DNA of 64,000 bases, taken from positions 22,201 to 86,200 of IMG/VR virus record IMGVR_UViG_3300037471_001733; one strand, 5' to 3'. Positions 23,569 through 62,237 of the stretch are shown here, in pieces; the stretch's first letter is position 1, and each line of letters starts with the position of its first letter. The stretch is from a virus. Taxonomy: Duplodnaviria > Heunggongvirae > Uroviricota > Caudoviricetes. Below the pieces are notes generated by a model, which saw nothing but the letters and a program-made list of their open reading frames with translations, had not been told where the DNA came from and searched no databases. Both the position numbers and the translations under genes were made by a program.

Positions 23569-24279
23569 ATGGACTGCGGCAAGAGAAGAACATGGGAGTG
23601 TGGCGTGACAACGAACTCTAAGAGGCTTTCTGGTAGACCATCTTTTAATTGGTCTATACCTGAGCCAGAAGAAGTTAAAGAAGTTAGATTGAAAGCCAAT
23701 TTGTCTCAGAGAGAAGCTTGTAATCTTTCTGGGATTAAAGAAGTAATGACTTGGAGTAATTGCGAAACTAGGAGAGCCGATGGCACTCCTAAGGCCCGCA
23801 TGGACCCAATTAGATGGGAATATTTCCTTCTAATAGTTGGACAACATTCCAAATTCGTTATTCTTCCGAGACTCGGGGTTGAACAGCCAAGAGAGGCGGC
23901 AGCTTTAACTAGGAAAGGTCCGTCTCTGCCTGGGGAGAACATTACTTTCGCAGTCGAGAGCCGAACTAGTGAAGACGAGTGGCGCTTGGTAGAAGGCGGA
24001 CAGTTCACAGCTCTGACTGCGGCATGTGTGGCCATAGACACGATGGTTGCCTGCAGGAACCTAAATGAACTAAGGGTGTCGCGTTACTCAGGTGGCGACT
24101 TCGTGATGGCAGTGCATGGGCCTGGTGTCTCTATGGACGAAGGCCCGAAGCGTTTTACCCATGCAAAGGCTGCGCCATCTCGAAGGACTGGGACTGACAG
24201 GAACGGAGCAGACCCAGGAGACCCAGATAATGATGGAAATGGAAGCAGAAATTCCAATGGTTTCGACCCTCAGGATTGA
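23569..24279 (+). CDS. HTH_XRE-domain protein with uncharacterised approx. 150-aa C-terminal domain, encoded in a low-GC island
   Basis: GGAG RBS; 'VKEVRLKANLSQREACNLSGIKEVMTWSNCE' HTH; AGA/AGG/TCT/AAT-rich codon usage unlike the rest of the window. Confidence 0.6.
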   Translation: MDCGKRRTWECGVTTNSKRLSGRPSFNWSIPEPEEVKEVRLKANLSQREACNLSGIKEVMTWSNCETRRADGTPKARMDPIRWEYFLLIVGQHSKFVILPRLGVEQPREAAALTRKGPSLPGENITFAVESRTSEDEWRLVEGGQFTALTAACVAIDTMVACRNLNELRVSRYSGGDFVMAVHGPGVSMDEGPKRFTHAKAAPSRRTGTDRNGADPGDPDNDGNGSRNSNGFDPQD

Positions 24280-37940: not shown

Positions 37941-38482
37941 GCGGCGATACCTCCCCAGGAAAACACGGACGCGCCGTTCATGGCTTCTGCCCAGTTGTGC
38001 CCGCGGCAAATTTGCGTCACCGACGAATACGGCATGCCGGTCCGCTCAGCGATGCTCTTCAACGACATTCCGGCGCTCCTCAGTTCGCGCAGCTCTCGCG
38101 CCTTCTCCATGGAGTACCGCTTGGCTTTCGCGCGCACTCCTGCCGTCTTGGCAGCCCTTACGGCGGGAGTTCTGTACACACCGCGCTTCGCGTGCTCGGC
38201 GTTGCACTCGGCGCGCGTCGCCAGCTTCAGATGACACAGGCACCGCTGGTGGAAACAGCCCGGCATTACCAGAAAGCCATCAGGGATCGGTCCTTTGGTT
38301 TTCTGCCAGAGCCACCTGCGGACGTTCGTGCCACGCAAGCCCTGCACCGACGCTTGAGGGACCCCCATGCGCATTGATCCCTTCCAGAGGCGGCACTCAC
38401 CCTCTTCGACCGTGCGCGCGTCCAGCCACGCGCCAATCCACGCCTGAACGTGCGCGTCATGAGGTTTCTTTGGCTTGGTCAT
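37937..38482 (-). CDS. HNH endonuclease (HNH_3-like) with C-terminal sigma-70 region-4-like HTH
   Basis: 181 aa; 'GECRLWKG...GFLVMPGCFHQRCLCHLKL' plus 'LRSAGMSLKSIAERTGMPYSSVTQICRG'. Confidence 0.5.
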   Translation of the reverse strand: MTKPKKPHDAHVQAWIGAWLDARTVEEGECRLWKGSMRMGVPQASVQGLRGTNVRRWLWQKTKGPIPDGFLVMPGCFHQRCLCHLKLATRAECNAEHAKRGVYRTPAVRAAKTAGVRAKAKRYSMEKARELRELRSAGMSLKSIAERTGMPYSSVTQICRGHNWAEAMNGASVFSWGGIAA

Positions 38483-38727
38483 GCCGCGACCACCGCGCGC
38501 ACCAGCGCCTTGAAATGCTTCACGTGCGCGTCGTGCTTGACCACCTTGGCGGCAGCAGTGCACTCCGGGCAGTGCAGGAGCACCCTGCGGTAGCGGCTGC
38601 AGCCTTCGATGCTGCTGAGCTGCTTGTGGCAGCCGTCGCAGCGCGCCGTGACAGCGTGACCGGGGCCGGCGGGCTTGTAGCGGACGTCCTGCGCGCCGCG
38701 CACGGACTCATAGCGGGTGGCGGTCAT
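38479..38727 (-). CDS. zinc-ribbon protein
   Basis: 82 aa; CDGCHK...CPEC. Confidence 0.4.
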   Translation of the reverse strand: MTATRYESVRGAQDVRYKPAGPGHAVTARCDGCHKQLSSIEGCSRYRRVLLHCPECTAAAKVVKHDAHVKHFKALVRAVVAA

Positions 38728-39125
38728 GCGGCACCCCCAGTCGCCTTGGCAATGACGGCTCGGGCGTTCGCCTCAGCCTTGGAAGCCGCCAGCATGGCGC
38801 GCTCGTGTGCAACACGTTCCCGGCCAGCGTCGCCGAAGTTCTCGTGCGCCACCGTGTACGCCATGGCGGCCTTCGCCTCGGCGTTGCGCGTCGTCAGCAC
38901 GTCTTGGAGCGCCGCCAGCAACTCAGGCGCGGCAGCGAACAAGTCCGGCCCGTAGCTGCCGAAGTAGCCGGAGAAGTTGACGTAGAAGTCATTCCACGAC
39001 TGGCTGCCATCGGTGTTGGAGAAGCTGCTGGCGTTCTCGATTCGGAACTGGTCGCGGGTCTCGCCCTCTGGCGCGCAGGAGGTGACACGCAATGGCCCTG
39101 GCGTGAGTTTTGGTTTTGCGGTCAT
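38724..39125 (-). CDS. hypothetical protein; paralog of 46401..46769
   Basis: 133 aa from ATG 39125; shared '...ELLAALQDVL...AIAKATGG' with plus-arm gene. Confidence 0.4.
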   Translation of the reverse strand: MTAKPKLTPGPLRVTSCAPEGETRDQFRIENASSFSNTDGSQSWNDFYVNFSGYFGSYGPDLFAAAPELLAALQDVLTTRNAEAKAAMAYTVAHENFGDAGRERVAHERAMLAASKAEANARAVIAKATGGAA

Positions 39126-39967
39126 GCAGAGGCTCCCTTGGCACCGGCCGCGCTCATGGCGGCGTCGATGGCCTCGCGCGAGAGTCCGTTGCCGGCAACG
39201 ATCCCCTCGCGCCGCAGCCCGGCCCAGTCGCCAACCCGACGGATCAGCCAGTCCAGGCGCGTGGCGTCGGGATGGGGCTGCACCAGCGGAGGTGCGAACT
39301 GCCGCTCCGCATAGAGGCGGATCACCTCGTTCTGCTGGTCGATCTCGTTGCGCAGGCGCTTGTTCTCGGCGATCACCTGAGCCAGCAGCCGCTGCTGGCA
39401 CTCCTCGACTCCGCTGCTGTCGCAGGTGTCGCAGTCATCGCACGGCTTGGCCGGCTCGGGCTGCGCCACCGAGGCGCCAGCCGGCTTCAGCAGCGCGTCA
39501 TCAAGCAGCACGAGGGCGTCGCCAATGGCCGGAACGTACTCCGCCGCAGGCACGACGAGCGTTTGCCGCGTGCGACGCAGAGCGACACGCAGCCGCTCAA
39601 GATCCGCCTCACGCTGATTCAGCGCAGCCCACAGCGCCCGCACCTCAGCGTTGTTGTGGTCCCGCTCGCAGTTGAGGCAGGCATCGCCAGGGATGCGCGT
39701 TTTCCAGCCGCAGACCTCGCATGCCTCCAGCGCCTGTTGGTCGTAGGTCTCAGCCTGCTGACCATCGTCAGCCGCACCGCGTGCCCGGATGGCAGCCTCA
39801 AGATCAACCGGCCCACCGTACATCGCCACCAGATCAATGCACGCCTCGCGCTCGGCTTCCGTCACCAGCGCAGCGAAGCGCTCCAGAACCGGCACGACAT
39901 CGGGACTAGGCTCCAGGCGCTCGGGATGAGCCTCGCGGGCCAGCTTCACAACCTCCTCGCGCGTCAT
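39122..39967 (-). CDS. hypothetical protein with CxxC pairs and coiled coil
   Basis: 281 aa. Confidence 0.45.
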   Translation of the reverse strand: MTREEVVKLAREAHPERLEPSPDVVPVLERFAALVTEAEREACIDLVAMYGGPVDLEAAIRARGAADDGQQAETYDQQALEACEVCGWKTRIPGDACLNCERDHNNAEVRALWAALNQREADLERLRVALRRTRQTLVVPAAEYVPAIGDALVLLDDALLKPAGASVAQPEPAKPCDDCDTCDSSGVEECQQRLLAQVIAENKRLRNEIDQQNEVIRLYAERQFAPPLVQPHPDATRLDWLIRRVGDWAGLRREGIVAGNGLSREAIDAAMSAAGAKGASA

Positions 39968-40302
39968 GCCTTCGCTCCTTCGTCATCGCCACACATGCGC
40001 AGCCAGTCAGCCATGGCAATGAACCGCGGCCCCCAATCGTCAGCCGGCAGGTCAGGCTCATGCTCGTCGTCGTGCCAGTAGATCCAGCCGCCGATGGCCG
40101 CCGACAGTTCACGCAGCCGCTGCAGCGACTCCTCAGGCACCACGTCTTGGCCGTAGCTGCGATCCGGCGCGGTCTCCGTCGCCATGGCCCACAGCGAGAA
40201 CTCGTTGCCCATGATCCATCCAGCGCAATAGCAGTCCTCGCTGATGTCGCTCATCAGCTCGTAGAGCTCGTTCTGCTGAGGGGTCAGGTTTTGCTCGCTC
40301 AT
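39964..40302 (-). CDS. hypothetical protein
   Basis: 112 aa. Confidence 0.4.
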   Translation of the reverse strand: MSEQNLTPQQNELYELMSDISEDCYCAGWIMGNEFSLWAMATETAPDRSYGQDVVPEESLQRLRELSAAIGGWIYWHDDEHEPDLPADDWGPRFIAMADWLRMCGDDEGAKA

Positions 40303-40880
40303 GCCTTGGCTCCTTCAGCGGGCTCGTCTTTTCGGCGTTGGTCAGCTTCGCCAGCCAAGTGCAGGCCATGAATCGCTAGCGCCTCACGAATCCTGGCGAT
40401 GGATGTGGGTCCAATGCCGCCGAACCGGCGCCGAGTCAGGTCCGCAGGAGTGAGCCTCGTCAGGGCGCCAATCGTTCGCACGCCATTGCGGTCCAAGGAG
40501 CCGGTCACCCTGGGCGTGAGGCCATCAAGCGCGGCGGGCGAGAAGGCCAGGAAGCCGACGTCATCAGGGTGCGGGCCCTGCTCGTGGCGCGGCTCGATGA
40601 GCGGCGGACGGGCCGGAGACGGCGCAGGAGCGGGCTCGGGCGCCGGCACAGGGATCGTGAAGCTCACCGGCTTCAGGCGCACCTTCAGCATCTCGTCGGC
40701 CACCATGTACGACACGATGGCAACCTGCTCCGGGCTGATGTCGCCGCCGTAGGCGCCCAGCAGGGACTGCATGGCACCCTCAGCGAGCTTGTCGCGCAGC
40801 TTGGTCAATTGCTTGCTCATGCTCCAGCCCTCCGCGCAGTCGGCCGGTAACTCTCCCAAGGAAACGGCACCCAGCGACAC
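40299..40880 (-). CDS. protein with C-terminal RNA-polymerase alpha-subunit CTD-like helix-hairpin-helix domain
   Basis: 193 aa; 'IGALTRLTPADLTRRRFGGIGPTSIARIREALAIHGLHL' matches alpha-CTD HhH pattern ([27 protein letters not shown]). Confidence 0.5.
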   Translation of the reverse strand: MSLGAVSLGELPADCAEGWSMSKQLTKLRDKLAEGAMQSLLGAYGGDISPEQVAIVSYMVADEMLKVRLKPVSFTIPVPAPEPAPAPSPARPPLIEPRHEQGPHPDDVGFLAFSPAALDGLTPRVTGSLDRNGVRTIGALTRLTPADLTRRRFGGIGPTSIARIREALAIHGLHLAGEADQRRKDEPAEGAKA

Positions 40881-41650
40881 GTCTCGGCCAGTCGATCAAA
40901 GGTGCGCTCACCAACGAACTGCTTGAAGCCCGCCGAGTTCTGGTTCGTGAGCAGGATGGTCGGCTTGACATCGCGGTAACGGCCGTCCAGCACGTCGAAG
41001 ACGATGTTCTGCTCGCTATCGGTGCCGTACTGCACGCCAACCTCGTCGATGACCAGCAGGTCCAGGTCCGTCAGGTAGCGCAGCACCTGCGTCTCGCTCT
41101 TCTCGCTGTCGCGCCGCCACGTCTCGCGGATCATGCGGATCAGGTCCATGCAGGTCACGTAGCGCACATCCGGCGAAAGCAGCGACTGCAGGACAGCGCC
41201 AGCGAGGTGGCTTTTGCCGGTGCCCGGCTTGCCGGCCAAGATCAGCCCGGAGCCCTTGCGCGAGTGCTCGGCAAAGTTCTCCGCGAAATCGCGCGTCACC
41301 GTCAGCGCATGGCGCTTCTCGTCGGTGTCGGCCACGAAGTTGTCGAACGTGCGGCCGATGAAGCGCGTCGGGATCATGGCGCTGGCCAGCATCCGGCTAT
41401 GGCGCTCTTCAGCGTCGCGGCGCTTTTGCTCAGCCTCGGCCGCGCGGTCCTCCTTGGCCTTGGCCTCTTCGCAGGCAGGACAGCGCGACCAGATGCGGCC
41501 GAAGATGTTGCGGCTCGTGTAGTCCCCGTGCTCGAGGCAAGAGGCTGCGCGCTCTTCCACCTGGCGCCTCACGGTGTCAGACAAGCGATCCATCGTCATC
41601 CACGCCTTCGCGGTAGTCCTTGGAGTCAAAACCAGCGTGCTTGCTGGCAC
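40817..41650 (-). CDS. DnaC/IstB-like AAA+ helicase loader
   Basis: 277 aa; Walker A 'GKPGTGKSHLAGAV', Walker B 'LLVIDEVG'. Confidence 0.7.
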   Translation of the reverse strand: MPASTLVLTPRTTAKAWMTMDRLSDTVRRQVEERAASCLEHGDYTSRNIFGRIWSRCPACEEAKAKEDRAAEAEQKRRDAEERHSRMLASAMIPTRFIGRTFDNFVADTDEKRHALTVTRDFAENFAEHSRKGSGLILAGKPGTGKSHLAGAVLQSLLSPDVRYVTCMDLIRMIRETWRRDSEKSETQVLRYLTDLDLLVIDEVGVQYGTDSEQNIVFDVLDGRYRDVKPTILLTNQNSAGFKQFVGERTFDRLAETCRWVPFPWESYRPTARRAGA

Positions 41651-42734
41651 CTTGGCTGCCGGCGACCGGCAGTTCGTCCATCCAGCGCCCCTGGTTCAAC
41701 CAAGTAGACGGATGCGGGATGTACTTGCCGCCATCGCGCGTCCAGTCAGTGGACTGCTTCTGCACCTTGATGGCATTCAGCATCGTGGCCAGCAGCTCAA
41801 CTCCAACTTGGCGCTTTTCAAAGGCGCGACGTGCCGCGTCAATGCCGACCTTCCTCGGGTATGCGCTCCAGAAATCCTCGAATCGACCGTCACCCCCAGG
41901 GGGGTTAGGGGGGTATTGGTTCCCTTGACGGTTAATTGACGGTTCTCCGTACCGTTTTTGGGACTGCTTCTCGGGAAAAACGGTACCGCTTCCACGGAAA
42001 AACGGTACTGCTTCACCATCCTCCGAAGCTGTACCGTTTTTGGCATAGCTTCCCAGACGTCGAGTCCGCTCCGCGATTGTTGCCGCGCGCAACTTGCTGG
42101 GAGTGCCTTCGTTCTTGCACAGCGGGTCCAAGTCGTACTGGCGGAACAGCCTCATTTCTGCCGCGCTGGCCTCCTCCGGCGTTTCAAACACCTCCAACAC
42201 CTCGCGCACCAGCAGGCGGCCGGCAGCGATCTGCTCGCGCGGCCACTTGCCGCTTCCACGATAGGCGTCTGCCTCGGGGTCTCCGCAAAAAGAGCGCTTA
42301 CCCAGGTAGAAATTGCCCGTCTCCGGGTCTGTCACTCGGTACGTGTAGTGCGTGGCTGACGCCGTAGGCAGGCCAAGCAGCCGATAGACCGGGATGGAGC
42401 CGGTCACACCAACGCGCTTGCCCGTGTCCATAAGCAGACCGGCGTCTTGCAAGTTCTTGATGTTCTTGATGAGAGTCTTGCGGTCGCAGCAGGTGTCCTG
42501 CTCCAGCCGCAGGATGCTCGGGTAACAGAACCCGAACTCGTCGGCGTAGTTGGCAAGGCAGACCATCAAGAACTTTTCGCTGGACTTCGGCATGTCCAGC
42601 TTGAAGGCGTAGGCGAGGGCTGGGATGCTCACAGCGGACCTCCCCGCACGTTCCATTGCCGCGCAGCCTCTACTGCAGCCTCCATGGCGTCTTCCAGCAC
42701 CACATCGGGCCCGTGCGACTCGCACTGCCAGCAC
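41577..42734 (-). CDS. phage replication initiation/replisome-organiser protein (N-terminal HTH_36 domain)
   Basis: 385 aa; 'FLMVCLANYADEFGFCYPSILRLEQDTCCDRKTLIKNIKNLQDAGLL' plus conserved C-terminal 'FEDFWSAYPRKVG...YIPHPSTWLNQGRW'. Confidence 0.65.
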   Translation of the reverse strand: MLAVRVARARCGAGRRHGGCSRGCAAMERAGRSAVSIPALAYAFKLDMPKSSEKFLMVCLANYADEFGFCYPSILRLEQDTCCDRKTLIKNIKNLQDAGLLMDTGKRVGVTGSIPVYRLLGLPTASATHYTYRVTDPETGNFYLGKRSFCGDPEADAYRGSGKWPREQIAAGRLLVREVLEVFETPEEASAAEMRLFRQYDLDPLCKNEGTPSKLRAATIAERTRRLGSYAKNGTASEDGEAVPFFRGSGTVFPEKQSQKRYGEPSINRQGNQYPPNPPGGDGRFEDFWSAYPRKVGIDAARRAFEKRQVGVELLATMLNAIKVQKQSTDWTRDGGKYIPHPSTWLNQGRWMDELPVAGSQGASKHAGFDSKDYREGVDDDGSLV

Positions 42735-42895
42735 TCGACCTTGGCGTTGAATGCCAGGTCGCCGTTGTTGTCCGTGGTCGGGCTGACCTCAGCGCATGCG
42801 TTGCCGTCGTTGCAGAACGGGCACGGCTTCAGGCCGGCGTTGATTTTTTCCAGCTCAGCGTTGAACCGTTTGCTGTTGAAACGGGGGTTGCTCAT
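42629..42895 (-). CDS. lar: Lar-family restriction-alleviation protein
   Basis: 88 aa; 'LKPCPFCNDGN...VECWQCESHGP...AVEAARQWNVR' zinc-ribbon pattern of Lar family. Confidence 0.6.
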   Translation of the reverse strand: MSNPRFNSKRFNAELEKINAGLKPCPFCNDGNACAEVSPTTDNNGDLAFNAKVECWQCESHGPDVVLEDAMEAAVEAARQWNVRGGPL

Positions 42896-43092
42896 GCGCG
42901 CCCCCTTTGCTCTACACTTCTCTCCACAGCTTCCTCTGCGTGATAGAGGTTGCGAAATGAGGCCTCGGCTGTTGGCGCAGTCGAGGCCTCGCCACTTGCA
43001 GCGCTGCTTTTGATGCAGCCGCCATCGGCACGGCGAGCGAAGTCGCCATGTCCGAGGTCAGCGTGAGCAGCGCGCAAAAACATGGAATTCCT

Positions 43093-43368
43093 TCAGCCGG
43101 CGCGGCGCCATCCAAGCGCCACAGCCAACTCGCGGAAGAAGGACGGGCGCTCAGGCTTGGCGCGGGGCGTTTGGGGCTCTTGCGGGGCCTGGCGCTTGGC
43201 TTCGCGGGCCTTCCTCTCGGCGTCTTGCTCGGCCCACTGCTTGCGCAGGTACTCGGCCTGCCAGTTGGCAAAAGCAACGTGTGCCTGCGCCGCGCGGAAC
43301 TCTTCGAGACGCTCCGCGCGCTGCGCGAGCCGGGCCTTGTAGGCGGGGACGGGGCGGCTGGGCTTCAT
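43093..43368 (-). CDS. hypothetical coiled-coil protein
   Basis: 91 aa. Confidence 0.4.
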   Translation of the reverse strand: MKPSRPVPAYKARLAQRAERLEEFRAAQAHVAFANWQAEYLRKQWAEQDAERKAREAKRQAPQEPQTPRAKPERPSFFRELAVALGWRRAG

Positions 43369-43970
43369 AGGAGGGGCTGACCAAAGTGACGGGCGAGGTA
43401 GTCATTCAGGGCCGCACTCCAGTAGTGCGCGTCCTTTACCTTGTCCTTTTCCTGCTCACACAACTCGCAGGGCACCGGCGGCGGCGCACCGTAGGCTTCA
43501 AACGGGTGCGGGAAGACTCCCGGGCCGCGCCGGAGATTGCAGGCACGGCAGACGGGCTGGACGAAGAGCAGATGGTTGTAGTCGCGGTGCTCGTAGTCCT
43601 GGGCCTGCTCACCACAGTCGACACACTTCAGGGTATGGACCCTCGGGAGCAGGCCCTTCCTCACCGCGCAGCTCACCGTGGCGTGGGCCCTGGTCAAGAT
43701 GGCTTGCTTGATGTTGAAGCGCAGGCTGCGGCACTTGTCACATCGCTGCGGTCGCAGCCAACCGCCCATGCCCTTCAGATAGCCGGGCGCAGCAACATCG
43801 GTCGACTGAAACGTTGCCAAGCAGTCTCTGCAGCACTGATGCTTGGGCTCGCTCGCGGCCACTCGCCTCTTCGGCGGCGGGCAGTTCCCGCAGAACTTGG
43901 CCGAGTAGTGCCGGTTGATGATCTTTCCGGAGCAGCGCGGACACAGGCGGTCGTTGGGGTCGAGCCTCAT
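43365..43970 (-). CDS. Cys-rich multi-zinc-finger protein
   Basis: 201 aa; at least 8 CxxC pairs. Confidence 0.5.
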   Translation of the reverse strand: MRLDPNDRLCPRCSGKIINRHYSAKFCGNCPPPKRRVAASEPKHQCCRDCLATFQSTDVAAPGYLKGMGGWLRPQRCDKCRSLRFNIKQAILTRAHATVSCAVRKGLLPRVHTLKCVDCGEQAQDYEHRDYNHLLFVQPVCRACNLRRGPGVFPHPFEAYGAPPPVPCELCEQEKDKVKDAHYWSAALNDYLARHFGQPLL

Positions 43971-44287
43971 GACTGCCCCCTTTTGGTGGTGTTACCGCAG
44001 TGTTCAAAGACCTGAACGCGGCCTTCTACGGGGTGTGCTTTGCAAGAAACTGTTGCGGTGCAGCACGGTGCTGCTGGAGCGAAATGCTCCGTGCTTCGGT
44101 TGGTGCGGTGCGAGGGGAAATGCGCCCTCTGGATGACAGGCCCGGCGATCTTCGACCATTCGGTCGAGTCGTTGCAGATTTGTACACTTAATGGTTTAAG
44201 GACATTGGCCCATGTACATGACGCGGTGTACCTTTGCCCCATGGAAACGCAGCAATTCGTGACGCGCATCACAGGGAGCGGGTTCAT
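43967..44287 (-). CDS. hypothetical protein (weak)
   Basis: 106 aa ORF overlapping antisense ORF. Confidence 0.25.
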   Translation of the reverse strand: MNPLPVMRVTNCCVSMGQRYTASCTWANVLKPLSVQICNDSTEWSKIAGPVIQRAHFPSHRTNRSTEHFAPAAPCCTATVSCKAHPVEGRVQVFEHCGNTTKRGQS

Positions 44288-44652
44288 TACACCGGCTCCG
44301 TTGCATCTGCGGGCACAGCAGATGCGCCTTGGCCATCAGTCCAAATCTCTTTCCCGTCGTCAGGATGCAAATGGAATCGCGTGACCTTGCCGCCGGTATT
44401 CCGCTCAATCAGTACAGACAATTTCGGGTTGCTGGGACTCAGCCCGTACATGACGTTGCGGAGGCGACCGAGGGAGACACCACAGCTGGCAGCGAACTCT
44501 TTCCTAGCTTTCGCGTTGGGCAAAGCTTTGACGAAGTCGTACAGCGGGGTGATGTACAGACTGCGGTCGCGTCCATTGACCTTCGTAGCGGTGTAGGTTC
44601 CGGTGCACATAACACCGAATCCTACACTGATGAATGCATACCTAGCAAACAC
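44287..44652 (-). CDS. Cro/YdaS-like HTH regulator (first gene of early-right operon; start may be internal)
   Basis: 'LYDFVKALPNAKARKEFAASCGVSLGRLRNVMYG...LIERNTGGKVTRFHLHPDD' matches Cro/YdaS-type pattern. Confidence 0.55.
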   Translation of the reverse strand: MFARYAFISVGFGVMCTGTYTATKVNGRDRSLYITPLYDFVKALPNAKARKEFAASCGVSLGRLRNVMYGLSPSNPKLSVLIERNTGGKVTRFHLHPDDGKEIWTDGQGASAVPADATEPV

Positions 44653-44685
44653 CGTTCGTGGCCTGCCGCGCAGTCCACTACTGGT

Positions 44686-45180
44686 GTGAGTGACGACCGC
44701 TTAATCCGTATCAGCAATCTGCGCAGGGTGTGCGCCGAGCGCAGGCTCAAGACCGCCGATCTACACCGGCTCCTGCCCTATGCCCGCTACACCTACTGGC
44801 GTGACGTACTGGAGGGCGACAAGCCCTTTGGAGAGAAGGCAGCGCGCAAGGTAGAAGCCAAGCTCGGCCTGCCCGACCGGTGGCTGGACACGCCGCGGGA
44901 CCCTGTTGAGTTCCGCGAGGTGTTACCCAGCGTGCCCGACGACGACGAAGACGAGCACCCAGATGAAGGGGGCCATGAATCGCACTGGCGCCACATCGCG
45001 GAGCTGTTTGCCGATATCTGCACGGAGCAGGACATCAAGATGCTGCCGTCCACCTTCTTGCTGATCGTTGATGCCGGCGTCCAGCGCGTGAATGAAGCGG
45101 CCGACAAGCGCAAGGCTTCCGAGGTTTTCAGCAAGCTTCTTCGCGTACTACAGCACGGCAAAGACCAAAATAGGGGCTAA
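44686..45180 (+). CDS. HTH DNA-binding regulator (candidate CI-like repressor, no peptidase S24 domain); start uncertain (GTG 44686 or 44728)
   Basis: divergent from Cro-like gene; 'RRLKTADLHRLLPYARYTYWRDVLEGDKPFGEKAARKVEAKLGLPDRWLD'. Confidence 0.45.
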   Translation: MSDDRLIRISNLRRVCAERRLKTADLHRLLPYARYTYWRDVLEGDKPFGEKAARKVEAKLGLPDRWLDTPRDPVEFREVLPSVPDDDEDEHPDEGGHESHWRHIAELFADICTEQDIKMLPSTFLLIVDAGVQRVNEAADKRKASEVFSKLLRVLQHGKDQNRG

Positions 45181-45281
45181 TACCTCTTTTCGTAAAACCG
45201 CACCCCCGGGCTTTGCCTTGGCGTAACGAATTACGGAACCTGTAGTTCTTGCAGTAGTCTTCACCACTATGAACCGCACGG

Positions 45282-45596
45282 GTGTTGCGGTTTGGAGCAG
45301 TGGTGGGATCGGTCTGGAACGAAGAAAAGCACGGCAGCCGCCTTCTCGTGGCCGCTAACGAGGGACATGCCCCGGCGCCGACGGAACCCCCGTCGATCAC
45401 GGCGGGGCTGCTGCAGCAGAGATTGCGCAGCAACGCTCCAATCAAGGCCATGAGCAACGCCGCGGCTGATGCCCTGGTCGGGCTGCTCGCTGGCGACACC
45501 GACGCCGCTACGGTGCGCGCGTGGATCGCTGATCTTGACGCCATGGTGCGCAAGGAGATCGTCTTGCCCTCCCAGGGGCCCGTCGGGCTCGCCTAA
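45282..45596 (+). CDS. hypothetical protein
   Basis: 104 aa (GTG start). Confidence 0.4.
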   Translation: MLRFGAVVGSVWNEEKHGSRLLVAANEGHAPAPTEPPSITAGLLQQRLRSNAPIKAMSNAAADALVGLLAGDTDAATVRAWIADLDAMVRKEIVLPSQGPVGLA

Positions 45597-45618
45597 CCAA
45601 CCCCTTTAAGCAAGCAAG

Positions 45619-45643
45619 AAGCCGCCTTCGGGCGGTTTTCTTG
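45619..45643 (+). terminator. rho-independent terminator (AGCCGCC-TTCG-GGCGGTT + TTTCTT)
   Basis: seen in sequence after 45282..45596. Confidence 0.5.
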
Positions 45644-45769
45644 GCACACCGTACTGTGTATTTTATCAGTACGTATTTACTTAGGTAATCGAAAAGCACA
45701 CCGTTTTGTGTTGACCGTCGCCGGGCTGCGGTGTTGTAATGACTCCAACGCGCTACACCAAAAAGCGCA

Positions 45770-46111
45770 ATGGAGACGGCAATGAACACCAGTGGCAGCG
45801 GCTACTCCTTCCAGAGTTTTCTGGGGGCGATCCCGGTAACTGTCTTCTATTGGGTAGAAGACGGTTTCGTGACGCCGATGACCTGCGATGTCGGCGGGAA
45901 GGTTGCATCGCTGCTGGATGACGGAGACCACTTCTCTCCGGTGCAGCTTCGCGTTTGGCAGCGCGCCGCCGAAGCCGACTACAGCCGCCGCACTGGCGCC
46001 GACTTCGAGCCCGATCCCACCGACTTCTTCAGCGACCCCGCAGGATGCGCCACGCGCTCGCTGGCCAGCTACTTCGACCGCGTTGATGCGGCTGCTCGGT
46101 GGGGTGCGTGA
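45770..46111 (+). CDS. hypothetical protein
   Basis: 113 aa. Confidence 0.4.
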   Translation: METAMNTSGSGYSFQSFLGAIPVTVFYWVEDGFVTPMTCDVGGKVASLLDDGDHFSPVQLRVWQRAAEADYSRRTGADFEPDPTDFFSDPAGCATRSLASYFDRVDAAARWGA

Positions 46112-46404
46112 TGACCACCCTCTACGCCGAATTCTCTGCCTTCGCCGCAGAGTTCAAAGCCGCCCGCCCCGAGCGCTTCGGCCGCCGTTCTGAACGCGCT
46201 AAACGCTCTGAAGCACCGTTCCGTGGCGTTCCTGCGCGCCTGGACGTTGATGCTGCGCGCGCTGAGCTGAGGGAACTGGTTGCGCGTCACGACGCGCGCT
46301 ATGAGTACAGCGACGACTACTCCGTCTGGGCTCGCGGTCAGGCTGAAGCCCAGCGGATCGCGGATCTGCGGTCGGCGATCGCCAAGGCTGGGGCAGCGGC
46401 ATGA
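46099..46404 (+). CDS. hypothetical protein
   Basis: 101 aa. Confidence 0.4.
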   Translation: MGCVMTTLYAEFSAFAAEFKAARPERFGRRSERAKRSEAPFRGVPARLDVDAARAELRELVARHDARYEYSDDYSVWARGQAEAQRIADLRSAIAKAGAAA

Positions 46405-46769
46405 ACGGCGCACATCTGACTAGCCAGCGGGCCATCAATGGGCCGTCGAAGCCGACAGCCGATGCTCCTGAAGGCGGCGACTACGCCATCGTTGTTGACG
46501 GACAGATCATCGCTGAGGTGTTCTACCGGTCATCGCCCACGCACACGCATGACGCGTGCGCCACTGCCCGCCTGTTCTCTGCCGCGCAGGACCTTCTGGA
46601 CGCCCTGCAAGACCTCCTGCGCGCCAACACCGAGGCGGCGAACTTCTCGATGAGCATGGTCACCGACCGCGAGGAGTTCGATGGCTTCCTGCGCGAGTGC
46701 GAGGCCAAGGTGGATGCGGCTGAGACGAAGGCTCGGGCTGCGATTGCAAAAGCGACTGGAGGCGTGTGA
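46401..46769 (+). CDS. hypothetical protein; paralog of 38724..39125
   Basis: 122 aa. Confidence 0.4.
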   Translation: MNGAHLTSQRAINGPSKPTADAPEGGDYAIVVDGQIIAEVFYRSSPTHTHDACATARLFSAAQDLLDALQDLLRANTEAANFSMSMVTDREEFDGFLRECEAKVDAAETKARAAIAKATGGV

Positions 46770-47251
46770 TGCGCGGCGTGTTTGCCGACCTGCGTGACCG
46801 AGTGTTTGGCCGCCTGGTAGTTGTGGACATGCATGACAAGCTGCCCACCGGCCAAGTGCTGTGGCTGTGCCTGTGCGAGTGCGGTGAAACGAAGGCTGTT
46901 CAGAGCGGCCACTTGACAAGCGGCCGCATCAGTTCCTGCGGCTGCCTGAAGCGCGAGAGTCAGCCTGCGCACCTGTGGACCGCCGAGAACATCGCCAAGT
47001 CCAGTGCTGCCCGCCTGACCAAGCGCGCAGCACGCTTTGAGCAGGCCCGCCGCCGTGTATGGGGGCTTCTCACTCCTGTTGAGAGCATCGACCGCCAAGG
47101 TGAGGAGTTCTGGCGTTGCGCGTGTGTGTGTGGTGGAGAAAGAACTGCCTGGGCAGCCGACATACGCCGCGGCAAGACCATCTCTTGCGGCTGCAGTCGG
47201 CGTGGCTTGTCCTACGGCAAGGCTCATGACGGAGTCGCGACATGCGCGTGA
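46766..47251 (+). CDS. tandem zinc-ribbon protein (2x WxCxCxCG...SCGC)
   Basis: 161 aa. Confidence 0.45.
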   Translation: MMRGVFADLRDRVFGRLVVVDMHDKLPTGQVLWLCLCECGETKAVQSGHLTSGRISSCGCLKRESQPAHLWTAENIAKSSAARLTKRAARFEQARRRVWGLLTPVESIDRQGEEFWRCACVCGGERTAWAADIRRGKTISCGCSRRGLSYGKAHDGVATCA

Positions 47252-61424: not shown

Positions 61425-61738
61425 AGCTGCGTCAACTCAAGCGGAAGCACGTCGGGCGCCTGCGCCTGCGCATCGTCATGGCGCGCATGGCCGCGCTGAG
61501 GATCGAGTGGGACCGCGCCTTAGACGACATGGCCGGCGCGATGGCAAAGGCCATCCTTGGCTATGGCGAGGCGATCAAGCAGCGCCTGCTACTGGTCTTC
61601 AACAAGACCGGCGATCTCGTGGCCCACAGCGATACCGCTTGCCAACCGGACACGCCGATGACCATGGGCCTGATCCCCGCCAACACGCAAATCAAAGGCC
61701 ACATCGCCAGTGCGCCGCTGGAAATGCATGACCGATAG
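61406..61738 (+). CDS. hypothetical protein
   Basis: 110 aa. Confidence 0.35.
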   Translation: MEVATLKLRQLKRKHVGRLRLRIVMARMAALRIEWDRALDDMAGAMAKAILGYGEAIKQRLLLVFNKTGDLVAHSDTACQPDTPMTMGLIPANTQIKGHIASAPLEMHDR

Positions 61739-62237
61739 CAACTTCCCCGACACCCCTACCCTGCGCGACGAGTTCGCTCTGCACGCCCCCATTGATTTCA
61801 ACGCGGCGCTGCGCCTATGGGGCGATGCGGACGCTGACTTGGTCAACGACGCGAACCGGGTCACGTTCATGATGCTCTGGGCGATGCACCGGTACGACTA
61901 CGCCGACGCCATGCTGGCTCAGCGCGACGAGCCACAGCGTGAGCCCGGGCAGCCGTTGCCATCCGGTGAGGACCGGCGCCTGGACCGCAAGCTGGTGACG
62001 CTCGACTTCTGGGACTACCGCGTCACGAAGCCTCTGGCCACCGCCGGCATCGAGACCCTGCGACAGCTGCTGGCGCTGGACATCTACCAGCTCGACGCCA
62101 TCAAGGGCATCGGGCCGGACGGGCTGCGCGACATCATCGACCGGCTCAACCGCGAGGGGCTGCGCCTGGCGCCAAAGGCAGCGCCAGCATTCGTGGACGA
62201 TGCGCCTGGGATCGGCGAAGAGACGATTGGGGGCTGA
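61728..62237 (+). CDS. RNA-polymerase alpha-CTD-like (helix-hairpin-helix) domain protein
   Basis: 'LDFWDYRVTKPLATAGIETLRQLLALDIYQLDAIKGIGPDGLRDIIDRLNREGLRL' collinear with alpha-CTD ([55 protein letters not shown]). Confidence 0.55.
   Translation: MTDSNFPDTPTLRDEFALHAPIDFNAALRLWGDADADLVNDANRVTFMMLWAMHRYDYADAMLAQRDEPQREPGQPLPSGEDRRLDRKLVTLDFWDYRVTKPLATAGIETLRQLLALDIYQLDAIKGIGPDGLRDIIDRLNREGLRLAPKAAPAFVDDAPGIGEETIGG

What the first reader, a model, noticed from the sequence alone, without database searches (positions are those of the whole stretch)
40299..40880. Phage protein ending in an RNA-polymerase alpha-CTD-like HhH domain (copy 1)
C-terminal about 40 aa align with the alpha-CTD DNA/activator-binding helix-hairpin-helix. 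A second, clearer copy is at 61728..62237 on the other arm. These are possible decoys or adaptors that redirect host RNAP/UP-element or activator contacts.
Basis: partly seen in the sequence, partly recalled or inferred. Interest (0 to 1): 0.55.

Follow-up and report, generated by a model that had tools for sequence, protein, structure and literature searches.

The report
Phage proteins with RNA-polymerase alpha-CTD-like domain
A temperate phage carries two small early genes that each join a phage-specific helical module, through a flexible proline-rich linker, to a domain with the fold of the DNA- and activator-binding tail of the bacterial RNA polymerase alpha subunit; the domain identity holds up, but what the proteins do has not been tested.

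Summary
The gene on the minus strand really runs 40299..40820: it starts at an ATG that overlaps the stop of the upstream DnaC-like gene, not at the GTG at 40880. It encodes 173 aa. Residues 95-157 are an alpha-CTD-type helix-hairpin-helix domain.

Evidence for copy 1:
- The direct Pfam match is below threshold (18.6 bits against a cut-off of 23.8).
- 84 relatives in 1.84 billion proteins all match through this one segment. All ten that were sampled are bona fide RNA_pol_A_CTD proteins.
- A profile that contains no RpoA sequence hits only RpoA chains in the PDB (best E 3e-19).
- The AlphaFold model superposes on solved alpha-CTDs at 1.1-1.3 A.

Copy 2 (61728..62237, + strand) is clearer, with E 1e-6 to Thermus RpoA.

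Both copies share one architecture: an N-terminal 'LRDxFA...ADAML' helical module that is widespread as a stand-alone small phage protein, then a Pro-rich linker, then the alpha-CTD-like domain. The minor-groove Arg (R265 equivalent) and the hairpin Gly (G296 equivalent) are kept. The sigma- and activator-contact determinants are not.

The most likely function is a tethered DNA-binding accessory protein of the early operons. The decoy reading is neither supported nor excluded. The gene is not a conserved part of the replication module. The find is a new architecture of a known but uncharacterised domain class and is of moderate interest.

The parts
40299..40820 (-). Copy 1 gene, 173 aa plus stop. 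ATG at 40820, TGA at 40301..40299. Both ends overlap the neighbouring genes as ATGA.
40671..40820 (-). Copy 1 N-terminal module (residues 1-50). It is a two-helix hairpin with the 'LRDxLA ... VADEML' signature of a family of small stand-alone phage proteins.
   Evidence: PHROG 20565/2201 at E ~3e-4. An independent HMM built from 24 stand-alone proteins scores it at E 1.6e-4. AF2 places helices at 3-24 and 30-49 with pLDDT 89-97.
40539..40670 (-). Copy 1 Pro-rich linker (residues 51-94, PVPAPEPAPAPSPARPP...), with no regular secondary structure predicted over most of it.
   Evidence: AF2 shows no regular secondary structure apart from one short helix (85-88), and pLDDT falls to 57-64. Sequence.
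40350..40538 (-). Copy 1 alpha-CTD-like HhH domain (residues 95-157). R104 is the R265 equivalent. G135-I-G137-P-T-S140 is the second hairpin. An RRRF insert lies just before the hairpin, and the core net charge is +5.
40302..40349 (-). Copy 1 charged C-terminal tail (residues 158-173, EADQRRKDEPAEGAKA).
61728..62237 (+). Copy 2 gene, 169 aa plus stop. It has the same three-part architecture and sits near the distal end of the + strand early arm.
61755..61928 (+). Copy 2 N-terminal module (residues 10-67), the long subtype of the same phage module.
   Evidence: The HMM of stand-alone proteins scores it at E 1.4e-23. It is 61% identical to the stand-alone protein P0100. tblastn finds the module in Klebsiella phage ZCKp20p.
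61989..62174 (+). Copy 2 alpha-CTD-like domain (residues 88-149). R98 is the R265 equivalent. G127-I-G129-P-D131-G is the hairpin. Core net charge is -1.
40817..41593 (-). Context: DnaC-like helicase loader, directly upstream of copy 1, with the ATGA start/stop overlap that suggests translational coupling.
   Evidence: PHROG 50 at E 2e-71. Pfam IstB_IS21/Bac_DnaA.
41577..42656 (-). Context: replication initiation protein (HTH_36 type) at the head of the replication module.
   Evidence: PHROG 270 at E 1e-36. Pfam HTH_36.

Best explanation
Copy 1, and its architectural paralog copy 2, is an accessory early protein of a temperate phage. Relatives of the neighbouring DnaC-like gene in Roseateles prophages point to a Burkholderiales host.

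Shown:
- The protein has three parts: a small two-helix N-terminal module that also exists as a free-standing phage protein family, a long proline-rich flexible linker, and a C-terminal domain homologous to and superposable on the RNAP alpha-subunit C-terminal domain.
- The domain belongs to the branch of alpha-CTD-like domains found outside RpoA, singly or in tandem arrays. In that branch the Arg that alpha-CTD inserts into the DNA minor groove and the Gly of the second hairpin are the best-conserved surface residues. Both residues are present here (R104 and G137).

Inferred:
- The C-terminal domain is a DNA-binding head. It contacts the backbone and minor groove and probably prefers narrow AT-rich grooves, which are rare in this 64% GC genome.
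- The head is tethered, as alpha-CTD is tethered to alpha-NTD, to an N-module that oligomerises or docks onto a partner.
- The protein therefore places the N-module's activity on DNA, or occupies UP-like or AT-rich sites during early infection.

It is not an RNAP subunit, and it is not a conserved part of the replication machinery.
For: Domain identity.

Architecture: AF2 gives a helical hairpin at 3-49, a linker at 51-94 with almost no regular structure, and the alpha-CTD fold at 95-157. Copy 2 has the same layout.

The N-module is an independent family. An HMM built from 24 stand-alone proteins hits only these two ORFs out of the 962 in the window.

The two N-modules are of different subtypes. 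Each is closer to free-standing proteins (46% and 61% identity) than to the other copy. The pairing with an alpha-CTD-like domain therefore either arose twice or is old and retained, which argues that the two parts work together.

Conservation in 270 non-RpoA alpha-CTD-like domains: the R265 equivalent is Arg in 67% and the G296 equivalent is Gly in 82%, against 17% for K298. Copy 1 keeps R, G and S299, has an RRR cluster next to the hairpin, and has a core net charge of +5.

R265 is the residue that reads the UP-element minor groove (PMC3694059, and established alpha-CTD literature).

The position among overlapping small genes downstream of the replication genes matches where stand-alone N-modules sit in other phages.
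Against: No binding experiment or DNA target exists.

K298, N268 and C269 of the E. coli 265 determinant are replaced. In copy 2 the K298 position is Asp and the core is slightly acidic, so copy 2 at least may bind a protein rather than DNA.

HhH and alpha-CTD domains also mediate protein contacts.

Oligomerisation of the N-module is inferred only from a two-helix model.

The function of the N-module family is unknown. All PHROG matches are 'unknown function', apart from one weak hit to a transcriptional-regulator family.

Copy 1 is an orphan: only itself was found among 15 billion proteins over its full length. Conservation across orthologs therefore cannot be used.
Confidence: 0.45

Rival explanations
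1. UP-element competitor or host-takeover factor. The free alpha-CTD-like domain occupies AT-rich UP elements, or otherwise blocks the productive alpha-CTD-DNA contact, at strong host promoters such as rrn. Transcription is thereby diverted to the phage. This is the DNA half of the first reader's decoy idea and a special case of the best explanation.
For: The minor-groove Arg and the hairpin Gly are retained. Both genes are in early operons. Phages are known to attack exactly this contact by other means: phage G1 gp67 blocks alpha-CTD binding to UP elements, and T4 ADP-ribosylates R265 (PMC3694059).
Against: There is no evidence of sequence preference or of toxicity. Half of the 265 determinant is changed. 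The simple promoter and terminator scan of 38000..47000 found no promoter-like site, so nothing can be said about which promoters would escape. Copy 1 is too rare to be a general strategy.
Confidence: 0.2
2. Protein decoy or adaptor. The domain mimics alpha-CTD as a protein-interaction surface and titrates or recruits alpha-CTD-binding partners, such as class I activators, sigma region 4 or NusA. This is the activator half of the first reader's idea.
For: The alpha-CTD fold is a known hub for such contacts. Copy 2 has an acidic residue at the K298 position and a net negative core, which suits DNA binding less well. Two divergent paralogs could address two different partners.
Against: The 261 determinant (D259, E261) and the 287 determinant (E286-E288, R317, L318) are not conserved in either copy. 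The domains resemble actinobacterial and Thermus alpha and non-RpoA stand-alone domains at least as much as proteobacterial alpha. A mimic of the host surface would be expected to track the host sequence.
Confidence: 0.15
3. Replication or recombination accessory. The HhH domain binds origin or branched DNA and assists the initiator and DnaC-like loader encoded just upstream.
For: Copy 1 sits directly after the initiator and helicase-loader genes and its start overlaps the loader's stop. The stand-alone N-module in Klebsiella phage ZCKp20p lies between an exonuclease VIII gene and an AAA ATPase plus SSB. The next-best fold class is the Rad51/RadA N-terminal HhH domain.
Against: Prophages of Roseateles with loaders that are 51-53% identical have no alpha-CTD-like gene within 8 kb, and an unrelated gene follows the loader. 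Copy 2 has the same architecture but lies about 20 kb away on the other early arm, not next to any recognised replication gene. The 4-bp overlaps are seen at both ends of copy 1 and at most gene junctions on the second contig, so they say little.
Confidence: 0.12
4. The match is only to the generic HhH motif, and the alpha-CTD label is an over-interpretation.
For: Both Pfam alpha-CTD scores are below the gathering threshold. For copy 2, HHH_5 scores slightly higher than RNA_pol_A_CTD.
Against: Every significant PDB sequence hit and the top 30 to 50 Foldseek hits are RNAP alpha. Other HhH folds (Rad51/RadA) appear only at E>0.1. All 10 sampled relatives score 30-165 bits on RNA_pol_A_CTD.
Confidence: 0.03

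Closest known systems
C-terminal domain of the bacterial RNA polymerase alpha subunit (RpoA residues ~250-320; Pfam PF03118)
   Same: Homologous by profile (E 3e-19 at family level). Same fold at 1.1-1.4 A rmsd. The R265-equivalent Arg and the G296-equivalent Gly are retained. The domain hangs on a flexible linker from an N-terminal part, as in RpoA.
   Different: There is no alpha-NTD, so it cannot assemble into RNAP. N268, C269 and K298 are replaced. The 261 and 287 determinants are not conserved. The hairpin reads G-I-G-P rather than G-K-K-S. Identity to E. coli alpha-CTD is only 22-27%.
Non-RpoA alpha-CTD-like domain proteins, single or in tandem arrays of up to 15 copies; includes uncultured Caudovirales proteins A0A6J5QDR9 and A0A6J5L490, auto-named 'RNA polymerase, alpha subunit, C-terminal'
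   Same: These are the closest sequence relatives of copy 1, at 35-52% identity over the domain. They share the 'N/G-I-G-P' hairpin. Phage examples exist in BFVD.
   Different: None of those inspected carries the 'LRDxFA...ADAML' N-module. No member has a described function in the literature searched.
Stand-alone 'GGPAFP / LRDYFA ... ADAMLAER' small phage proteins (PHROG 20565, 2201, 37111)
   Same: The N-terminal 50-68 residues of both copies belong to this family. They also sit among small early genes downstream of replication genes.
   Different: The family members are 56-107 aa with no second domain. Here the module is fused to an alpha-CTD-like domain and lacks the upstream GGPAFP motif.
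Phage factors that disable the alpha-CTD-UP element contact (S. aureus phage G1 gp67; T4 ADP-ribosylation of alpha R265)
   Same: If the competitor reading is right, the physiological target would be the same: UP-element-dependent host transcription early in infection (PMC3694059).
   Different: There is no sequence or fold relationship. Those factors bind sigma region 4 or covalently modify alpha, whereas these proteins would act as a look-alike of alpha-CTD itself. The comparison is functional analogy only and is untested.

Membership tests
Pfam PF03118 RNA_pol_A_CTD (alpha-CTD domain superfamily) | Score at or above the curated gathering threshold (23.8 bits) | tested here: not met
   Copy 1 scores 18.6 bits as a whole protein and 20.4 bits for the C-terminal 92 aa. 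Copy 2 scores 21.5 bits.
Pfam PF03118 RNA_pol_A_CTD (alpha-CTD domain superfamily) | Significant sequence similarity to accepted members (transitive or profile homology) | tested here: met
   84 hits at E<=1e-3, all through residues 95-160, and all 10 sampled hits pass PF03118. A profile without RpoA sequences hits 54 RpoA chains, best 3.2e-19. The copy 2 family profile scores 7.6e-8.
Pfam PF03118 RNA_pol_A_CTD (alpha-CTD domain superfamily) | Compact alpha-CTD fold (short N-terminal helix plus four helices forming two HhH-like hairpins) | tested here: met
   Predicted models only. Copy 1 matches 1z3e_B at TM 0.82 and rmsd 1.1 A, and 8hvr_K at TM 0.80 and rmsd 1.3 A. Copy 2 matches 8y5t_A2 at TM 0.89 and rmsd 1.2 A, and 1z3e_B at TM 0.91 and rmsd 1.4 A.
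Pfam PF03118 RNA_pol_A_CTD (alpha-CTD domain superfamily) | 265 determinant for UP-element DNA (R265, N268, C269, G296, K298, S299 in E. coli numbering) | tested here: inconclusive
   Copy 1 keeps 3 of 6 (R, G, S). Copy 2 keeps 2 of 6 (R, G) and has K298 replaced by D. The two residues kept are the ones conserved across 270 non-RpoA domains. The E. coli sequence was recalled from memory, and its numbering was checked against the known residues.
RNA polymerase alpha subunit (RpoA) | N-terminal dimerisation and core-assembly domain (RNA_pol_L / RNA_pol_A_bac) | tested here: not met
   Pfam and NCBIfam match only the last ~60 positions of the rpoA models. The N-terminus is a 50-aa helical hairpin of a phage family.
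RNA polymerase alpha subunit (RpoA) | 261 determinant (sigma region 4 contact) and 287 determinant (CAP AR1 contact) | tested here: not met
   At positions 258-261, copy 1 has A-L-D-G and copy 2 has V-T-L-D. At positions 285-289, copy 1 has T-P-A-D-L and copy 2 has D-I-Y-Q-L.
'LRDxFA...ADAML' small phage protein family (PHROG 20565/2201) | Profile match over the two-helix module, including the LRD and ADxML signatures | tested here: met
   PHROG E values are 2.6e-4 and 3.3e-4 for copy 1 and 4.5e-5 for copy 2. The HMM from 24 stand-alone members scores copy 1 at 1.6e-4 and copy 2 at 1.4e-23, with no other ORF in the window. Invariant L, R, D, A...A..L..R columns appear in A3.
Generic HhH (Pfam PF14520 HHH_5) | Score at or above the gathering threshold (27 bits) | tested here: not met
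   15.1 bits for copy 1 and 23.9 bits for copy 2.
Phage inhibitors of alpha-CTD function (gp67-like, Alt/ModA-like) | Homology to gp67, or an ADP-ribosyltransferase fold | tested here: not met
   The Pfam, PHROG and NCBIfam scans and the PDB and BFVD fold searches returned no gp67-like or ADP-ribosyltransferase match. Any relationship would be by analogy of target only.

The most novel reading that the evidence does not exclude
The two proteins are free look-alikes of the RNAP alpha-CTD that the phage deploys from both early operons. They would compete with the host polymerase's own alpha-CTD for UP-element/AT-rich DNA, or for alpha-CTD partners, or bridge phage DNA to a partner of the N-module. 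That would be a previously undescribed, mimicry-based way of reprogramming host transcription. The fusion of the alpha-CTD-like head with two different subtypes of a common phage module marks that module as a DNA- or RNAP-associated effector family.
Probability: 0.15. Interest if true: 0.7.

Novelty: new variant of a known kind. Interest (0 to 1): 0.4.

Why it matters
Alpha-CTD is the main handle through which promoters (UP elements) and many activators recruit bacterial RNA polymerase, and phages are known to attack that handle indirectly (gp67, and T4 ADP-ribosylation of R265). A phage-encoded free copy of the handle, present twice in one genome, would be a direct mimic and a simple tool for probing UP-element and activator dependence.

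The find also gives the first functional hint for two large uncharacterised groups. One is the non-RpoA alpha-CTD-like domains, single and in tandem arrays. The other is the very common 'LRDYFA...ADAMLAER' small phage proteins. Their repeated fusion suggests that the small module works on or near DNA or RNAP.

If the proteins turn out to be plain non-specific DNA binders, the result is an ordinary domain annotation.

Tried and rejected
- Megablast of both arms against 50,697 phage records found no relative of the phage.
- The word-index protein search for copy 1 returned only itself.
- IMG/VR has no relative of copy 1.
- GTDB species genomes have no relative of the copy 2 family.
- tblastn against phage records found only the N-modules, never the full architecture.
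- A search for a third copy in all 962 six-frame ORFs of the window found none.
- Conserved synteny with the DnaC-like loader is rejected. Roseateles prophages with 51-53% identical loaders have no such gene within 8 kb, and IMG/VR loci with related loaders show none in the stretches held.
- Rosetta-stone check: loci with stand-alone N-modules have no alpha-CTD-like gene nearby.
- The promoter and terminator scan of 38-47 kb was uninformative: 0 promoter-like sites, and terminators below the shuffled expectation.
- The + strand ORF 40399..40752 is rejected as an antisense shadow because of its codon-position GC.
- Five literature searches for phage or stand-alone alpha-CTD-like proteins found no description.
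- Recent capture from the host rpoA is rejected. The best matches are Thermus and actinobacterial alpha and non-RpoA domains, and identity to E. coli alpha-CTD is only 22-27%.

Full report
**The gene**

The finding sits on a minus-strand ORF that ends at 40299. The longest form starts at a GTG at 40880 and would overlap the upstream gene by 64 nt. The sequence shows GGAGGGCTGGAGC-ATG at 40820, and this ATG overlaps the TGA of the upstream gene as ATGA. The stop of the gene overlaps the ATG of the next gene in the same way. A gene call on an independent contig that carries the identical protein gives the 173-aa form. Codon-position GC content is 0.70/0.52/0.78, as in the neighbouring genes. The antisense ORF 40399..40752 has the inverted first/second-position pattern of a shadow ORF. 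The gene is therefore 40299..40820 (-), 173 aa.

**Is the C-terminal part alpha-CTD-like?**

Taken alone, the Pfam match for copy 1 is marginal: RNA_pol_A_CTD at E 0.0016 and 18.6 bits against a 23.8-bit gathering score. Copy 2 scores 21.5 bits. NCBIfam rpoA models match only through their last ~60 positions. All other evidence points the same way.

- phmmer against all PDB sequences puts RNAP alpha chains in the top 12 places for copy 1 (best 1doq, E 0.007). For copy 2 the nine best are alpha chains, with the best E 1.1e-6.
- A profile of nine copy 2 homologs reaches 7.6e-8.
- An exhaustive HMMER scan of 1.84 billion representative proteins with copy 1 gives 84 hits at E<=1e-3. Every hit aligns to residues ~95-160, and many contain 2-15 tandem copies of the matching unit.
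- All ten sampled hits are above-threshold RNA_pol_A_CTD proteins at 30-165 bits.
- A profile made from the copy 1 C-terminus and nine single-domain relatives, with no RpoA sequence among them, hits 54 PDB sequences. All are RNAP alpha subunits, and the best has E 3.2e-19.
- AlphaFold models (copy 1 pLDDT 85, copy 2 pLDDT 75) superpose on isolated alpha-CTD chains. Copy 1 gives TM 0.80-0.82 at 1.1-1.3 A, and copy 2 gives TM 0.89-0.91 at 1.2-1.4 A. The top 30 (copy 1) and top 50 (copy 2) Foldseek hits are all RNAP alpha. The next fold class, the Rad51/RadA N-terminal HhH domain, appears only at E>0.1.

The domain is about 60 residues (95-157) and is followed by a 16-residue charged tail.

**Architecture**

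Both proteins have the same three parts.

- *N-terminal module.* In copy 1, residues 3-24 and 30-49 form a confident two-helix hairpin. Copy 2 has a longer version with extra short helices.
- *Linker.* In copy 1, residues 51-94 are proline-rich, lack regular structure apart from one short helix, and have the lowest confidence in the model.
- *C-terminal domain.* In copy 1, residues 95-157 are the alpha-CTD fold.

The N-terminal parts of both copies hit the same PHROG families of unknown function. They align on an 'LRDxFA ... (Y/W)xxADAMLxxR' signature. A profile search finds this module mostly as free-standing phage proteins of 56-107 aa, often preceded by a GGPAFP motif. An HMM built only from 24 such free-standing proteins scores copy 2 at 1.4e-23 and copy 1 at 1.6e-4, and scores nothing else among the 962 ORFs of the window.

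The two N-modules belong to different subtypes. Each is much closer to free-standing proteins (46% and 61% identity) than to the other copy. The two alpha-CTD-like domains are 35% identical, which is no closer than either is to unrelated members of the family. The two genes are therefore not a recent duplication. Either the module and the alpha-CTD-like head were joined twice, or an old fusion has been kept while free-standing forms split off. Both histories argue that the two parts work together.

**Context**

The window is a phage genome segment with divergent early operons around an AT-rich regulatory region at ~44-46 kb.

- Copy 1 lies on the minus-strand arm directly after a replication initiator (PHROG 270, E 1e-36) and a DnaC-like helicase loader (PHROG 50, E 2e-71). 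It is followed by a long run of small genes, most of them unannotated.
- Copy 2 lies near the distal end of the plus-strand arm, which also carries RecT. It is followed by one small ORF and then by convergent genes.
- Orthologs of copy 2 occupy the same relative position in related elements of ~120 kb. Those elements also encode DHFR, RtcB, ParA/ParB and a relaxase.
- Loaders that are 51-53% identical occur in Roseateles prophages, which suggests a Burkholderiales host. Those prophages have no alpha-CTD-like gene within 8 kb, and an unrelated gene follows the loader.
- Copy 1 is thus an accessory gene, not a fixed part of the replication module. Stand-alone N-modules in other phages likewise sit among small early genes downstream of replication or recombination genes.
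- Over its full length, copy 1 has no relative other than itself in about 15 billion proteins.

**Which alpha-CTD functions could be retained?**

I aligned both copies to E. coli alpha-CTD. The E. coli sequence was recalled from memory, and its numbering was verified against R265, N268, C269, G296, K298, S299, E261, V287 and R317.

| E. coli feature | Copy 1 | Copy 2 |
|---|---|---|
| R265 (minor-groove Arg) | kept (R104) | kept (R98) |
| G296 (hairpin Gly) | kept (G137) | kept (G129) |
| S299 | kept (S140) | replaced by Gly (G132) |
| N268, C269, K298 | replaced | replaced; K298 position is Asp (D131) |

The 261 determinant (sigma region 4) and the 287 determinant (CAP-type activators) are not conserved in either copy.

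Across 270 alpha-CTD-like domains from 81 non-RpoA proteins, the R265 equivalent is Arg in 67% and the G296 equivalent is Gly in 82%. They are the best-conserved surface positions. K298 is Lys in only 17%. The hairpin 'G-I-G-P' shared by both copies is typical of this non-RpoA branch.

Copy 1 has an RRRF insertion next to the hairpin and a core net charge of +5. Copy 2 and E. coli alpha-CTD are both -1.

**Most likely mechanism**

The fold, the homology and the architecture are shown. I infer that the C-terminal domain is a DNA-binding head of the alpha-CTD type, making backbone and minor-groove contacts through R104 and the G135-S140 hairpin. It would be tethered by a flexible linker to an N-module that self-associates or docks on a partner. 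A lone two-helix hairpin is unlikely to be stable by itself. This is the layout of the alpha subunit in miniature.

I put about 0.45 on this tethered DNA-head model. Within it, competition with host alpha-CTD at UP-like AT-rich DNA is attractive because phages are known to target that contact (gp67, T4). There is no direct support for it, and I give it about 0.2. A protein decoy for activators, sigma or NusA gets about 0.15, because the relevant surfaces are not conserved and the domains do not track proteobacterial alpha. A replication accessory role gets about 0.12, because of the missing synteny and the location of copy 2.

**Comparison with what is known, and novelty**

The domain is a divergent member of the alpha-CTD superfamily. 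It fails the Pfam gathering score but passes the transitive-homology and fold tests. The protein is not an RpoA, since there is no alpha-NTD.

Non-RpoA alpha-CTD-like proteins are numerous. They include two auto-annotated proteins of uncultured Caudovirales in BFVD. Five literature searches found no functional description of any of them. The fusion with the 'LRDYFA' phage module was not seen in any of 50,697 deposited phage genomes. Elsewhere it was found only in the small copy 2 family of nine clusters and in the orphan copy 1.

I rate this a new variant of a known but uncharacterised kind, with moderate interest (0.4). The most novel reading not excluded is a mimicry-based hijack of alpha-CTD function. 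I give it a probability of about 0.15, and its interest would be about 0.7 if true.

Noticed in passing
window 41577..42656 (-), residues ~102-182 of the replication initiator: The HTH_36-type replication initiation protein has an internal segment that matches a homing-endonuclease PHROG (phrog_314, E 1.7e-7). The sequence there (YRVTDPETGNFYLGKRS...YRGSGKW) looks like a GIY-YIG-type insert between the N-terminal HTH and the C-terminal initiator domain.
   Followed up: no
window 45644..45714: This is one of the few AT-rich stretches (up to 72% AT) in a 64% GC genome. It lies just downstream of the small + strand ORF 45282..45596, in the ~44-46 kb region that separates the divergent early arms. 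It holds two 16-nt direct repeats, GCACACCGT(AC/TT)TGTGT, spaced 52 nt apart. These are candidate operator or UP-like sites and a plausible test substrate for the alpha-CTD-like proteins.
   Followed up: partly
window 23619..23871 and 24224..24266: An AT-rich island (up to 70% AT in 40-nt windows) lies in a 2-kb stretch whose GC falls to 0.58, against ~0.64 elsewhere. It may be a foreign insert or a regulatory or packaging-related region.
   Followed up: no
L002 (JGI 3300038393 contig of 119,571 bp) and L005: Elements that carry the copy 2 ortholog are ~120 kb, the same size as the 120,045-bp contig that holds the window's proteins. They encode ParA, ParB/KorB, a relaxase, DHFR and RtcB next to phage genes. 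The whole element may be a ~120-kb phage-plasmid rather than an integrated prophage.
   Followed up: no
window 42629..42895 (-): A small Lar-like restriction-alleviation protein (phrog_599, E 1.2e-6; Pfam Lar_restr_allev weak) is encoded just upstream of the replication initiator.
   Followed up: no
L012-L014 (Roseateles genomes): The nearest relatives of the DnaC-like loader in species-representative genomes are prophages of Roseateles (Burkholderiales), at 51-53% identity. This is the only clue to the host found here.
   Followed up: partly
proteins P0011-P0013, P0059: Large proteins outside phages carry 6-15 tandem alpha-CTD-like domains. One is 2440 aa with 15 matched stretches, one combines six copies with a HIT domain, and a smaller one (P0014, 236 aa) has TPR repeats plus two copies. 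I found no description of this multi-domain class in the literature searched.
   Followed up: partly
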